Source: Escherichia coli (GTDB lineage: Bacteria; Pseudomonadota; Gammaproteobacteria; Enterobacterales; Enterobacteriaceae). Taken from it: a stretch of DNA of 64,000 nucleotides. The stretch is taken from the NCBI RefSeq assembly GCF_003334335.1, contig NZ_QOWQ01000015.1. The stretch is one strand, 5' to 3'. Of this stretch, positions 2,023 to 38,230 are shown in pieces; position 1 is the stretch's first letter; the number at the start of each line of letters is the position of its first letter. A program made the position numbers and the translations under genes. Under the pieces are notes generated by a model that saw only the letters and a program-made list of their open reading frames with translations, was not told where the DNA came from and ran no database searches.

Positions 2023-3006
2023 ATGCAGATAAAACGCTCGATTGAGAAAATCCCGGGGGGGATGATGCTCGTCCCGCTATTCCTTGGCGCACTGTGCCAC
2101 ACCTTCTCGCCGGGGGCGGGGAAATATTTTGGATCATTCACCAACGGGATGATTACCGGTACGGTGCCCATTCTGGCGGTGTGGTTTTTTTGCATGGGGG
2201 CGTCAATAAAATTAAGCGCGACGGGAACGGTACTGCGTAAATCCGGTACGCTGGTGGTAACTAAAATTGCCGTCGCGTGGGTGGTTGCGGCAATTGCCTC
2301 GCGTATTATTCCGGAACATGGTGTTGAAGTTGGATTCTTTGCCGGACTTTCAACGCTGGCGCTGGTGGCGGCGATGGATATGACCAATGGCGGACTTTAC
2401 GCTTCCATCATGCAGCAGTACGGCACAAAAGAAGAAGCTGGGGCATTTGTGTTGATGTCGTTGGAGTCCGGGCCGCTCATGACGATGATTATTCTGGGCA
2501 CTGCCGGGATTGCCTCGTTTGAACCGCATGTTTTCGTCGGCGCAGTATTACCGTTCCTGGTGGGCTTTGCCCTGGGGAACCTTGACCCTGAATTGCGAGA
2601 ATTTTTCAGCAAAGCGGTGCAAACGCTGATTCCATTCTTTGCCTTCGCGCTGGGCAATACCATTGATTTGACTGTGATTGCCCAGACTGGTTTGCTGGGG
2701 ATCCTGTTGGGTGTGGCAGTAATTATCGTGACCGGTATTCCGTTGATTATCGCCGATAAATTGATTGGCGGTGGCGATGGCACTGCCGGAATTGCCGCTT
2801 CCAGTTCCGCAGGGGCCGCGGTAGCGACACCTGTGCTGATTGCAGAAATGGTGCCTGCGTTTAAACCGATGGCTCCGGCAGCAACTTCGCTGGTAGCGAC
2901 GGCGGTCATTGTGACTTCGATTCTGGTGCCAATTCTTACCTCTATCTGGTCACGTAAAGTCAAAGCCAGAGCAGCGAAAATCGAAATTTTAGGTACGGTG
3001 AAATAA
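2023..3006 (+). CDS. kdgT: 2-keto-3-deoxygluconate permease
   Basis: ORF track 2014..3006; start moved to ATG 2023 ([13 protein letters not shown]..), preceded by aggtga SD; 327 aa polytopic membrane protein. Confidence 0.9.
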
Positions 3007-3154
3007 ACCTGCTTCCTTAATCCCCACAGCCGGATGAACTAACGTTCGTCCGGTTTGCTATTGAGTTCCTGCCTGGATACTTACCGCGAAAACAGCACGC
3101 CTGACATAAAATAAATATGGTCTAATGGGGAAATTTCTCGTGGAGAGGGAACAG

Positions 3155-3829
3155 ATGCGATATCCGGTTGATGTATACACAGGCAAGATTCAGGCTTATC
3201 CCGAAGGCAAACCCAGCGCAATTGCTAAAATCCAGGTTGATGGTGAGTTGATGCTGACGGAGCTGGGGCTGGAAGGTGACGAGCAGGCGGAGAAAAAGGT
3301 TCACGGCGGGCCAGACAGAGCGCTGTGTCATTATCCTCGTGAGCATTATCTCTACTGGGCGCGGGAATTTCCGGAACAGGCGGAGTTGTTTGTTGCGCCT
3401 GCGTTTGGTGAAAACCTCTCAACCGACGGCCTGACGGAAAGTAATGTTTATATGGGCGATATTTTCCGCTGGGGAGAGGCATTAATTCAGGTCAGCCAGC
3501 CGCGCTCGCCTTGCTATAAACTCAATTACCATTTTGATATCAGCGATATAGCGCAGTTGATGCAAAACACAGGTAAGGTGGGGTGGTTGTATAGCGTGAT
3601 AGCGCCAGGGAAAGTGTCTGCGGACGCGCCGCTGGAGTTGGTTTCCCGTGTCAGCGATGTGACCGTGCAGGAGGCTGCCGCCATCGCATGGCATATGCCG
3701 TTTGATGACGATCAATATCACCGTTTACTCTCCGCTGCCGGGTTATCGAAAAGCTGGACGCGGACGATGCAAAAGCGCCGACTGAGCGGCAAGATCGAAG
3801 ATTTTTCCCGCCGGTTGTGGGGAAAATAA
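3155..3829 (+). CDS. yiiM: MOSC-domain protein (6-N-hydroxylaminopurine resistance)
   Basis: ORF track 3125..3829; start moved to ATG 3155 (MRYPVDVYTGK..) with ggagaggg SD; 224 aa. Confidence 0.88.
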   Translation: MRYPVDVYTGKIQAYPEGKPSAIAKIQVDGELMLTELGLEGDEQAEKKVHGGPDRALCHYPREHYLYWAREFPEQAELFVAPAFGENLSTDGLTESNVYMGDIFRWGEALIQVSQPRSPCYKLNYHFDISDIAQLMQNTGKVGWLYSVIAPGKVSADAPLELVSRVSDVTVQEAAAIAWHMPFDDDQYHRLLSAAGLSKSWTRTMQKRRLSGKIEDFSRRLWGK

Positions 3830-3843
3830 CCCCCGGAGTGTAG

Positions 3844-3923
3844 GCCTGATAAGACGCTATCAGCGTCGCATCAGGCATCCTGCTCAAATGCCGGATGCGG
3901 CGTAAACGCCTTATCCTGCCTGC
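3844..3923. repeat. REP/BIME palindromic element pair (yiiM-cpxA intergenic)
   Basis: GCCTGATAAGACGCTATCAGCGTCGCATCAGGC and GCCGGATGCGGCGTAAACGCCTTATCC.. imperfect palindromes of REP type. Confidence 0.8.
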
Positions 3924-6801: not shown

Positions 6802-7704
6802 ATGAATCAATCTTATGGACGGCTGGTCAGTCGGGCGGCGATTGCTGCGACGGCGATGGCTTCGCTGCTATTGCTGATTAAAATTTTTGCATGGTGGTAT
6901 ACCGGGTCGGTGAGTATTCTCGCCGCGCTGGTGGATTCGCTGGTGGATATCGGCGCGTCGTTGACGAATTTATTGGTGGTGCGATATTCCCTGCAACCTG
7001 CCGACGATAATCACTCGTTTGGTCACGGTAAAGCTGAGTCCCTCGCGGCGCTGGCGCAAAGTATGTTTATCTCCGGTTCGGCACTATTCCTGTTTTTGAC
7101 GGGTATTCAACATCTGATATCTCCAACACCGATGACAGATCCAGGCGTCGGGGTTATCGTGACAATTGTGGCGCTAATTTGTACGATTATCCTTGTCTCG
7201 TTTCAGCGTTGGGTGGTGCGGCGGACGCAAAGCCAGGCGGTGCGGGCTGATATGCTACATTACCAGTCTGATGTTATGATGAACGGCGCAATTCTGCTGG
7301 CGCTGGGGTTGTCCTGGTACGGCTGGCATCGCGCCGATGCTCTGTTTGCATTGGGAATCGGCATCTATATTTTATATAGCGCGTTACGCATGGGATATGA
7401 GGCGGTACAGTCATTACTGGATCGCGCATTGCCTGATGAGGAACGGCAAGAAATTATTGATATCGTGACTTCCTGGCCGGGTGTTAGCGGCGCTCACGAT
7501 CTTCGCACGCGGCAGTCAGGGCCGACCCGCTTTATTCAGATTCATTTGGAAATGGAAGACTCTCTGCCTTTGGTTCAGGCACATATGGTGGCGGATCAGG
7601 TAGAGCAGGCTATTTTACGGCGTTTTCCGGGATCGGATGTAATTATCCATCAGGACCCCTGTTCCGTCGTACCCAGGGAGGGTAAACGGTCTATGCTTTC
7701 ATAA
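6802..7704 (+). CDS. fieF: Cation diffusion facilitator Fe/Zn efflux pump FieF (YiiP)
   Basis: ORF track 6784..7704; start moved to ATG 6802 ([13 protein letters not shown]..), 300 aa, gggag SD upstream. Confidence 0.92.
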
Positions 7705-7884: not shown

Positions 7885-8847
7885 ATGATTAAGAAAATCG
7901 GTGTGTTGACAAGCGGCGGTGATGCGCCAGGCATGAACGCCGCAATTCGCGGGGTTGTTCGTTCTGCGCTGACAGAAGGTCTGGAAGTAATGGGTATTTA
8001 TGACGGCTATCTGGGTCTGTATGAAGACCGTATGGTACAGCTAGACCGTTACAGCGTGTCTGACATGATCAACCGTGGCGGTACGTTCCTCGGTTCTGCG
8101 CGTTTCCCGGAATTCCGCGACGAGAACATCCGCGCCGTGGCTATCGAAAACCTGAAAAAACGTGGTATCGACGCGCTGGTGGTTATCGGCGGTGACGGTT
8201 CCTACATGGGTGCAATGCGTCTGACCGAAATGGGCTTCCCGTGCATCGGTCTGCCGGGCACTATCGACAACGACATCAAAGGCACTGACTACACTATCGG
8301 TTTCTTCACTGCGCTGAGCACCGTTGTAGAAGCGATCGACCGTCTGCGTGACACCTCTTCTTCTCACCAGCGTATTTCCGTGGTGGAAGTGATGGGCCGT
8401 TATTGTGGAGATCTGACGTTGGCTGCGGCCATTGCCGGTGGCTGTGAATTCGTTGTGGTTCCGGAAGTTGAATTCAGCCGTGAAGACCTGGTAAACGAAA
8501 TCAAAGCGGGTATCGCGAAAGGTAAAAAACACGCGATCGTGGCGATTACCGAACATATGTGTGATGTTGACGAACTGGCGCATTTCATCGAGAAAGAAAC
8601 CGGTCGTGAAACCCGCGCAACTGTGCTGGGCCACATCCAGCGCGGTGGTTCTCCGGTGCCTTACGACCGTATTCTGGCTTCCCGTATGGGCGCTTACGCT
8701 ATCGATCTGCTGCTGGCAGGTTACGGCGGTCGTTGTGTAGGTATCCAGAACGAACAGCTGGTTCACCACGACATCATCGACGCTATCGAAAACATGAAGC
8801 GTCCGTTCAAAGGTGACTGGCTGGACTGCGCGAAAAAACTGTATTAA
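7885..8847 (+). CDS. pfkA: 6-phosphofructokinase I
   Basis: ORF track 7789..8847 over-extended; true start ATG 7885 ([23 protein letters not shown]..) with gaggt SD; 320 aa. Confidence 0.96.
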
Positions 8848-8902: not shown

Positions 8903-9003
8903 TGCCTGATGCGCTTCGCTTATCAGGCCTACATGAATTCTGCAATTTATTGAATTTGCAAACTTTTGTAGGCCGGATAAGGCGTTCGCGCCGCATCCGG
9001 CAT
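8903..9003. repeat. BIME (two inverted REPs with central linker), pfkA-sbp intergenic
   Basis: GCCTGATGCGCTTCGCTTATCAGGCCTAC ... GTAGGCCGGATAAGGCGTTCGCGCCGCATCCGGCA. Confidence 0.85.
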
Positions 9004-28227: not shown

Positions 28228-28284
28228 AGTTAAACGTCCATGTATAAAAAGCGGTGGGTCGCAGACAACGTGCTCGTTGTTTAT

Positions 28285-28382
28285 GCCGGATGCGGCGTGA
28301 ACGCCTTATCCGGCCTACAAGTTCGTGCAAATTCAATAAATTGCAATATGACGTAGGCCTGATAAGCGTAGCGCATCAGGCG
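28285..28382. repeat. BIME (two inverted REPs), yiiX-metJ intergenic
   Basis: GCCGGATGCGGCGTGAACGCCTTATCCGGCCTAC ... GTAGGCCTGATAAGCGTAGCGCATCAGGC; near-identical to the copy at 38122..38219. Confidence 0.85.
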
Positions 28383-28410
28383 ATTCCACTCCGCGCCGCT
28401 CTTTTTTGCT

Positions 28411-37990: not shown

Positions 37991-38121
37991 CTGGTTCGTC
38001 CGTGAAAATAAGAGTCACAGATTCGACCTTCCGGGCTAACGATTGTTCTGTAGAGAAAATGTCCAGAAGCGGATAAAAAATTCCTGAACAACGTGGGAGT
38101 TTCAGATTACTGGCACAGAGT

Positions 38122-38219
38122 GCCGGATGCGGAGTGAACGCCTTATCCGGCCTACAAAAGCACGCAAATTCAATATATTGCAGAGATTGCGTAGGCCTGA
38201 TAAGCGTAGCGCATCAGGC
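38122..38219. repeat. BIME (two inverted REPs), yijF-gldA intergenic
   Basis: GCCGGATGCGGAGTGAACGCCTTATCCGGCCTAC ... GTAGGCCTGATAAGCGTAGCGCATCAGGC. Confidence 0.85.
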
Positions 38220-38230
38220 AATTTTGCGTT

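What the first reader, a model, noticed from the sequence alone, without database searches (positions are those of the whole stretch)
6927..6946. Two Chi sites 12 bp apart inside fieF
GCTGGTGG occurs at 6927..6934 and again at 6939..6946 on the plus strand, inside the first transmembrane region of fieF. Further plus-strand copies are at 2250..2257 and 2361..2368 (kdgT) and 57719..57726 (argH). A tandem Chi pair is a strong local RecBCD attenuation site. The plus-strand bias fits this region lying clockwise of oriC.
Basis: seen in the sequence. Interest (0 to 1): 0.15.

Follow-up and report, generated by a model that had tools for sequence, protein, structure and literature searches.

The report
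Incidental Chi pair in fieF
Two copies of the E. coli recombination signal Chi really do sit 12 bases apart inside the metal-exporter gene fieF, but they are an ordinary by-product of how a conserved protein motif happens to be spelled in DNA, within the already well-known excess of Chi on the replication leading strand.

Summary
GCTGGTGG occurs at 6927-6934 and 6939-6946 on the + strand, inside fieF (6802-7704) of a K-12-like E. coli.

The pair spells A42-L43-V44-D45 / S46-L47-V48-D49. This is the Asp45/Asp49 metal-transport site in TM2, not TM1.

Window-level enrichment and strand bias are real:
- Synonymous-codon shuffles predict 3.8 Chi on + (observed 17) and 4.5 on - (observed 5).
- Potential in-frame sites are realised 13/23 in leading-strand genes against 2/22 in lagging-strand genes.
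- The bias flips across oriC in MG1655: 5+/22- on the left, 37+/3- on the right.

The pair itself is not under detectable selection. The peptide is invariant in 79 of 80 Enterobacteriaceae species. Three potential Chi sites in TM2 appear and disappear independently, and E. albertii and Salmonella have none of the pair.

Both Chi lack the favoured purine-rich 3' flank. The likely function is two independent chances for RecBCD moving towards oriC. That gives about 36-64% recognition against 20-40% for one site, which is modest rather than strong. This is already known biology and of low interest.

The parts
6939..6946 (+). Chi octamer GCTGGTGG, the terminus-proximal one. It is the first of the pair met by RecBCD travelling towards oriC. 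It spans the last base of S46 (TCG), L47 (CTG), V48 (GTG) and the first base of D49 (GAT). 3' flank is ATATCGG, so nt 4-7 = TCGG.
6927..6934 (+). Chi octamer GCTGGTGG, the origin-proximal one, giving a second chance. It spans the last base of A42 (GCG), L43 (CTG), V44 (GTG) and the first base of D45 (GAT). 3' flank is ATTCGCT, so nt 4-7 = CGCT, which runs into the start of the other Chi.
6926..6949 (+). Imperfect 12-bp direct repeat, CGCTGGTGGATT / CGCTGGTGGATA (11/12 identical). It encodes the i/i+4 helical repeat (A)LVD(S)LVD that puts Asp45 and Asp49 on one face of TM2.
   Evidence: sequence read directly; for Asp45/Asp49 in TM2
6802..7704 (+). fieF (yiiP) CDS, a CDF-family Zn/Fe/Cd exporter. 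It is co-oriented with replication and is the host gene of the pair.
6972..6979 (+). Third potential in-frame Chi site of TM2 (N56-L57-L58-V59-V60). It is not realised in E. coli, where it reads ATTGGTGG (two mismatches). It is a true Chi in 31 of 80 related species.
8175..8182 (+). Nearest same-orientation Chi on the terminus side (in pfkA), 1.2 kb away. RecBCD coming from further right meets this one before the pair.
2361..2368 (+). Nearest same-orientation Chi on the origin side (in kdgT), 4.6 kb away. It is the next chance if the pair is missed.

Best explanation
These are two genuine, correctly oriented Chi sites that sit next to each other by accident of coding.

How the pair arises:
- FieF needs the helical repeat L-V-D45-x-L-V-D49 in TM2 to build its metal-transport site.
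- Each x-Leu-Val-Asp can be spelled xxG CTG GTG Gxx, which is Chi.
- In leading-strand genes of E. coli such potential sites are spelled as Chi more than half the time. This reflects the known genome-wide enrichment of Chi in the orientation that serves repair of broken replication forks.
- In the E. coli lineage both adjacent sites are currently in the Chi state.

How it most likely works (inferred, not shown here):
- RecBCD enters a double-strand end on the terminus side and unwinds towards oriC.
- It scans the 3'-ended (+) strand and meets 6939-6946 first, then 6927-6934 four nucleotides later.
- Each is an independent chance of roughly 20-40% to switch the enzyme, nick a few nucleotides 3' of Chi and load RecA.
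- After one recognition the enzyme no longer responds to the second site.
- The pair therefore behaves as one Chi of about 36-64% efficiency, probably towards the lower end because neither 3' flank is of the favoured purine-rich type.

There is no evidence that the pairing itself is selected.
For: Shown here:
- Exact octamers and reading frame.
- The window is E. coli K-12-like DNA, 15 SNPs from MG1655, starting at genome coordinate 4,099,668, clockwise of oriC.
- GC skew is positive over the window as a whole (cumulative +0.43), though three sub-windows between 12 and 28 kb are negative.
- Synonymous-codon shuffles give + expected 3.78 (sd 1.78, max 10) against 17 observed, and - expected 4.54 against 5 observed.
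- Potential in-frame sites are realised 13/23 in + genes against 2/22 in - genes, p = 0.0012. L-V dipeptides are spelled CTG-GTG in 45/80 against 17/68, p = 1.3e-4. Antisense-frame sites are realised 4/8 in - genes against 1/10 in + genes.
- Chi counts in MG1655 are 5+/22- in the 150 kb left of oriC and 37+/3- in the 150 kb right of it.
- Chi is the most strand-skewed octamer and ties for most frequent. Its ratio is 5.85:1 against 1.73:1 for octamers of the same composition over 364 kb, p = 3.5e-6.
- The peptide [10 protein letters not shown] is invariant in 79 of 80 species while synonymous positions drift.
- Site 1 is Chi in 32.5% of species and site 2 in 40%. Both are Chi in 12.5%, against 13.0% expected if independent.
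- With the third site, all eight presence/absence combinations occur at near-independence frequencies.

From the literature:
- Asp45/Asp49 of TM2 form transport site A (PMC6465983).
- A single Chi is recognised at 20-40% and synthetic triple arrays at 60-80%. These figures fit independent tries (PMC8386832).
- The 3' flank positions 4-7 modulate activity (PMC5041463).
- Chi is over-represented, polarised on the leading strand and shared across Enterobacteriaceae (PMC8022716).
Against: - No experiment or dataset was available that shows RecBCD or RecA behaviour at this locus.
- Independence of two Chi separated by only 4 nt is assumed by analogy with synthetic arrays. I could not verify the spacing used in those arrays.
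- Across orthologs each site is Chi 3-6 times more often than the gene's own codon usage predicts. So some pressure, or shared ancestry, keeps these codons Chi-like. I cannot separate phylogenetic inertia from selection with the tests run.
- The exact 30-mer is present in 5395 of 5426 E. coli genomes. This is compatible with neutrality at E. coli's low diversity but does not prove it.
Confidence: 0.85

Rival explanations
1. The pair is a selected 'super-Chi'. On this view, natural selection maintains two adjacent Chi at this position to give an unusually efficient RecBCD stop that protects origin-proximal DNA or nearby essential genes such as pfkA and tpiA.
For: - The pair is essentially fixed in E. 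coli, in 5395 of 5426 genomes.
- Both sites being Chi is only 0.7% likely from the gene's codon usage.
- In orthologs both sites are Chi in 12.5% against 0.8% predicted from own-gene codon usage.
Against: - The nearest relatives lack it. E. albertii has 0 of the 2 sites, both Salmonella enterica subspecies have 0, and most Citrobacter have 0-1.
- The joint frequency equals the product of the single-site frequencies, 0.125 against 0.130.
- All eight states of the three TM2 sites occur at independence frequencies.
- The excess over codon usage is the same size as the general leading-strand excess, 17 against 3.8.
- The 3' flanks are not of the high-activity type.
- Another Chi lies only 1.2 kb to the right.
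Confidence: 0.05
2. The whole pattern, meaning the pair, the count and the strand bias, is a passive consequence of codon usage plus G/T-rich leading-strand composition. On this view there is no selection for Chi at all.
For: - 15 of 22 Chi are in the frame xxG CTG GTG Gxx, which uses the commonest Leu and Val codons.
- Other octamers with the same base composition also favour the + strand, 1.62:1 in the window and 1.73:1 over 364 kb.
- In the window alone, Chi's excess over that class is not significant (p = 0.099).
Against: - Codon-preserving shuffles give 3.8 on + against 17 observed, with 0 of 1500 shuffles reaching 17. The - strand is at expectation.
- The same peptide contexts are spelled as Chi in 57% of cases in leading-strand genes and 9% in lagging-strand genes. 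Translation-level codon or codon-pair bias cannot explain this difference.
- Over 364 kb, Chi is 5.85:1 against 1.73:1 for its composition class, p = 3.5e-6, and it is the single most skewed octamer.
Confidence: 0.07
3. The pair arose by a recent 12-bp tandem duplication or replication slippage, so the second Chi is a copy of the first.
For: The two 12-bp units are 11/12 identical at the DNA level.
Against: - The peptide LVDSLVD is invariant in 79 of 80 Enterobacteriaceae species, with no length change.
- Both Asp residues are structurally required ligands of site A.
- In other species the two units differ at several synonymous positions. The DNA-level similarity in E. coli is therefore convergent spelling of an old peptide repeat.
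Confidence: 0.02

Closest known systems
Chi (crossover hotspot instigator) sites of E. coli and enteric bacteria, 5'-GCTGGTGG-3', recognised by RecBCD
   Same: - The octamer is identical.
- The host species is the same.
- The orientation is productive (leading strand, read by RecBCD moving towards oriC).
- The typical in-frame Leu-Val coding context is present.
- It belongs to the known roughly 1000-site, about 3:1 leading-strand-biased population.
   Different: Nothing differs in kind. The only peculiarity is that two sites are 4 nt apart, and both have C/T-rich nucleotides at 3' positions 4-7, which predicts average or below-average activity.
Synthetic tandem Chi arrays, such as the triple-Chi arrays flanking the lacZ palindrome in the Leach laboratory strains
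   Same: Several same-orientation Chi sit within a short stretch. The expected behaviour is independent repeated chances of recognition. The reported 60-80% for three sites against 20-40% for one fits 1-(1-p)^n (PMC8386832).
   Different: This pair is natural, lies in a coding region, has two sites rather than three, and has never been measured. I did not verify the spacer length of the synthetic arrays.
Chi as a by-product or beneficiary of codon usage (Colbert, Taylor and Smith 1998, 'oceans of ORFs'; El Karoui et al. 1999; both cited in PMC5041463)
   Same: The pair sits in the CTG-GTG reading frame of a leading-strand gene, exactly the situation those analyses discuss.
   Different: Here the link can be tied to a specific structural motif, the DxxxD metal site of a CDF transporter. 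That motif offers two potential sites one helical turn apart, with a third potential site 33 bp downstream in the same helix.

Membership tests
Enteric Chi site (RecBCD hotspot) | Exact octamer 5'-GCTGGTGG-3' | tested here: met
   exact matches at 6927-6934 and 6939-6946 on the + strand
Enteric Chi site (RecBCD hotspot) | Resides in a host whose RecBCD recognises this octamer | tested here: met
   The window is E. coli, 99.97% identical to MG1655, and fieF is found in 5426 of 5426 E. coli genomes. That E. coli RecBCD recognises GCTGGTGG comes from the literature (PMC5041463).
Enteric Chi site (RecBCD hotspot) | Orientation productive for RecBCD moving towards oriC (octamer on the leading strand) | tested here: met
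   The window lies clockwise of oriC. GC skew is positive overall. The Chi strand bias flips across oriC.
Enteric Chi site (RecBCD hotspot) | Belongs to a statistically over-represented, strand-polarised word population | tested here: met
Enteric Chi site (RecBCD hotspot) | Favourable 3' flank (A/G at nucleotides 4-7) for high activity | tested here: not met
   The flanks are CGCT and TCGG. C at positions 4-7 and T at 5-7 are disfavoured (PMC5041463). This feature grades activity and does not decide membership.
Enteric Chi site (RecBCD hotspot) | Measured RecBCD nicking, RecA loading or hotspot activity at this site | not testable with these tools
   No experimental data for this locus were found. 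Published RecA ChIP work concerns breaks at lacZ.
Tandem Chi array with enhanced recognition | Two or more same-orientation Chi within tens of bp | tested here: met
   4-nt spacer
Tandem Chi array with enhanced recognition | Recognition efficiency measurably above a single Chi | not testable with these tools
   Only extrapolated from the 20-40% single and 60-80% triple figures in PMC8386832.
Conserved (selected) cis-element | Nucleotide conservation beyond what the encoded protein requires | tested here: not met
   the peptide is invariant, the synonymous sites drift, the pair is present in 10 of 80 species, and site states are independent

The most novel reading that the evidence does not exclude
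The three L-V-(D/V) motifs of FieF TM2 make this helix a recurrent 'Chi nursery' across Enterobacteriaceae. Up to three Chi occur within 53 bp in five of the 80 species. On the novel reading, clusters this tight act more than additively on RecBCD, for example through re-scanning or a pause at the first site that raises capture at the second. That would give a locally dominant recombination and repair entry point that lineages gain and lose.
Probability: 0.04. Interest if true: 0.3.

Novelty: already known. Interest (0 to 1): 0.07.

Why it matters
It matters little beyond bookkeeping.

The case is a clean, small illustration of three points:
- A structural protein motif (the DxxxD metal site of a CDF transporter) can create adjacent potential Chi sites.
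- The realisation of such sites depends on replication orientation rather than on translation.
- Individual Chi sites turn over freely between species while the overall density is kept.

For annotation, the pair should be counted as one somewhat more efficient Chi, not as a special element.

Tried and rejected
1. I assumed the window was colinear and identical with MG1655. That failed. BLAST showed 15 SNPs, one extra 123-bp repeat unit, and a foreign last 77 bp.
3. I looked for association between the codon states that make up each Chi in 80 orthologs, as a signature of selection on the whole word. None was found: the joint frequency is close to the product of the marginals.
4. I tried to find the spacer length of published synthetic Chi arrays in three open papers. 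It is not stated in the passages retrieved.
5. One literature query was rejected for syntax and one for phrase length.
6. A whole-genome scan for close Chi pairs in E. coli was not possible, because region fetches are capped at 50 kb each. I sampled 300 kb around oriC instead and used a Poisson estimate.
A collection-wide search for GCTGGTGGNNNNGCTGGTGG was therefore not run.
8. The duplication/slippage origin was considered and rejected (see rival explanations).

Full report
**Observation**

An exact search finds GCTGGTGG at 6927-6934 and 6939-6946 on the + strand. The sequence reads ...GCC GCG CTG GTG GAT TCG CTG GTG GAT ATC.... Both copies lie in the ORF annotated as fieF in E. coli: window 6802-7704, + strand. 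The protein is identical to the crystallised YiiP/FieF (2qfi, E = 7e-196). The window holds 22 Chi, 17 on + and 5 on -, against 2.07 expected from dinucleotide shuffles.

**Where the window comes from**

The window starts at MG1655 coordinate 4,099,668 and is colinear with MG1655. It differs by 15 SNPs, one extra 123-bp unit of a tandem repeat between ppc and argE, and a foreign last 77 bp. oriC is annotated at 3,925,744-3,925,975. The window therefore lies about 174-238 kb clockwise of oriC, and its + strand is the leading strand. GC skew is positive overall, which agrees with this.

**What the pair encodes**

- fieF codon 42 starts at 6925.
- The left Chi is the G of GCG (A42), CTG (L43), GTG (V44) and the G of GAT (D45).
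- The right Chi is the G of TCG (S46), CTG (L47), GTG (V48) and the G of GAT (D49).
- Asp45 and Asp49 of TM2, with His153 and Asp157 of TM5, form the tetrahedral transport site A of YiiP (PMC6465983).
The pair lies on the metal-binding face of TM2.
- The 12-bp DNA repeat (CGCTGGTGGATT / CGCTGGTGGATA) is the spelling of an i/i+4 helical peptide repeat.

**Is the Chi excess and strand bias more than codon usage?**

1. I permuted synonymous codons within each of the 56 annotated genes, keeping every protein and each gene's codon usage (1500 shuffles).
   - On the + strand 3.78 Chi are expected (sd 1.78, maximum 10) and 17 are observed.
   - On the - strand 4.54 are expected and 5 are observed.
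2. Translation-level codon-pair effects are controlled by comparing genes on the two strands.
   - Potential in-frame sites (x-L-V-[GADEV]) are realised as Chi in 13 of 23 cases in leading-strand genes and 2 of 22 in lagging-strand genes (p = 0.0012).
   - L-V is spelled CTG-GTG in 45/80 against 17/68 cases (p = 1.3e-4).
   - In the antisense frame (xCC ACC AGC) the preference is reversed: 4/8 in - genes and 1/10 in + genes. Here too the Chi ends up on the + strand.
3. The bias flips across oriC in MG1655: 5+/22- in the 150 kb to the left and 37+/3- in the 150 kb to the right.
4. Base composition explains part of the bias but not all of it.
   - The other 167 octamers with five G, two T and one C favour the leading strand 1.73:1 over 364 kb.
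   - Chi favours it 5.85:1 (p = 3.5e-6). It is the most skewed octamer and ties for most frequent.
   - In the 64-kb window alone this last comparison is not significant (p = 0.099).

All of this restates what is already known. Chi occurs about once per 5 kb, is polarised on the leading strand and is shared across Enterobacteriaceae (PMC8022716). It is about three times more frequent in the orientation productive for fork repair (PMC5041463).

**Is the pair itself special?**

- From fieF's own codon usage the two sites would be Chi 10% and 6% of the time, and both 0.7%.
- With the empirical realisation rate in leading-strand genes (57%), two adjacent potential sites are both Chi about one time in three.
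- What is rare is the peptide. Only fieF (two pairs) and rraA (one pair) in the window have potential sites within 20 codons of each other.

I fetched fieF from 80 other Enterobacteriaceae species.

- The peptide [10 protein letters not shown] is invariant in 79 of 80, but the synonymous positions drift.
- Site 1 is Chi in 32.5% of species, site 2 in 40%, and both in 12.5%. Independence predicts 13.0% for both.
- E. albertii, the closest named relative, and two Salmonella enterica subspecies have neither site.
- A third potential site in the same helix (N-L-L-V-V, codons 56-60) is unrealised in E. coli, where it reads ATTGGTGG at 6972-6979.
- That third site is a true Chi in 31 of 80 species.
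- All eight presence/absence combinations of the three sites occur, at frequencies very close to independence. For example, 20 species have none against 19.8 expected, and 5 have all three against 4.1 expected.
- Each site is Chi 3-6 times more often than the orthologs' own codon usage predicts. This matches the general leading-strand excess, but it may also include shared ancestry.
- Within E. coli the exact 30-mer is present in 5395 of 5426 complete genomes. That is unremarkable at this species' low diversity.

I conclude that the pairing is incidental. There is no sign of selection for two sites together.

**How it most likely works (inferred)**

- A + strand Chi is read by RecBCD that enters a duplex end on its 3' (higher-coordinate) side and moves towards lower coordinates, here towards oriC. 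This is the direction taken from a collapsed clockwise fork.
- The enzyme meets 6939-6946 first and 6927-6934 four nucleotides later.
- Published figures are 20-40% recognition for one Chi and 60-80% for synthetic triple arrays (PMC8386832), which fits independent tries. Two tries give 36-64%.
- Taylor et al. 2016 showed that A/G at 3' nucleotides 4-7 raise cutting and hotspot activity, and that C at 4-7 and T at 5-7 lower it, by up to 4-7-fold.
- Here those positions are CGCT for the left site (they run into the right Chi) and TCGG for the right site, so neither is favourable.
- Another correctly oriented Chi lies 1.2 kb to the right (8175) and the next to the left is 4.6 kb away (2361).
- 'Strong local attenuation site' is therefore an overstatement. 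'One Chi of somewhat above-average capture probability' is the defensible reading.
- From my own knowledge, not tested here: an enzyme that has responded to one Chi does not respond to the next. The pair therefore cannot produce two events from one enzyme.

**Comparison with known systems, and novelty**

Every testable defining feature of an enteric Chi site is met: octamer, host, orientation, and membership of the over-represented polarised population. Activity at the locus cannot be tested with these tools. The favourable-flank feature, which grades activity, is not met. The conserved-element test is not met. The finding is a member of a thoroughly described class, so I rate novelty as 'already known' and interest as low.

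**Things seen in passing**

- The last 77 bases of the window (63924-64000) are not btuB leader. They are the left end of an IS256-family IS1414 element, and the transposase ATG is at 63996.
- The IS is inserted inside the btuB cobalamin riboswitch (Rfam hit at 33 bits). None of 5426 complete E. coli genomes has this junction.
- The ppc-argE spacer carries 3.8 copies of a 123-bp repeat, one more than MG1655.
- Rfam also finds OxyS, naRNA4, the ClpQY promoter element, the L31 leader and two ES036 copies.

Noticed in passing
window 63924-64000: The last 77 bp diverge from the MG1655 btuB leader. They are the left end of an IS256-family IS1414 element (100% match; transposase ATG at 63996), inserted inside the btuB cobalamin riboswitch (Rfam RF00174 hit 63840-64000, only 33 bits). 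None of 5426 complete E. coli genomes holds this junction. The insertion would be expected to disrupt btuB expression, and so affect vitamin B12 uptake and the phage BF23/colicin E receptor.
   Followed up: partly
window 53679-54148: A tandem repeat of a 123-bp unit (3.8 copies, 98% matches) lies in the ppc-argE intergenic region. The window has one unit more than MG1655, and four of the 15 SNPs against MG1655 fall inside it.
   Followed up: partly
window 6970-6981; loci L021, L055, L056, L058, L080 at about 3126-3178: The same TM2 helix of FieF has a third potential Chi site (N-L-L-V-V). It is unrealised in E. coli but is a true Chi in 31 of 80 related species. Five species carry three Chi within 53 bp.
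   Followed up: yes
window 2250-2257 and 2361-2368 (kdgT); 31343 and 32114 (metL); 44840 and 46529 (pflD): Several leading-strand genes carry two in-frame Chi each. All 13 coding-strand Chi in + genes are in the same frame (xxG CTG GTG Gxx). All four + strand Chi inside - genes are in the frame xCC ACC AGC.
   Followed up: yes
window 8925-8966 (-) and 28319-28360 (+); 3843-3920 (-): Rfam matches to ES036 (two copies) and naRNA4 fall in intergenic spacers. I take them to be REP-type repeat-derived RNAs from my own knowledge, which was not checked here. A 103-bp stretch at 28284-28385 also matches 38121-38223 at 88% identity.
   Followed up: no
window 641, 1857, 12373, 12489, 18796, 21610, 40536, 42437, 45482, 62827, 63388: Eleven SNPs against MG1655 lie outside the repeat, with two each in yiiQ, ptsA and trmA. 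The source is therefore a close relative of K-12 rather than MG1655 itself.
   Followed up: no
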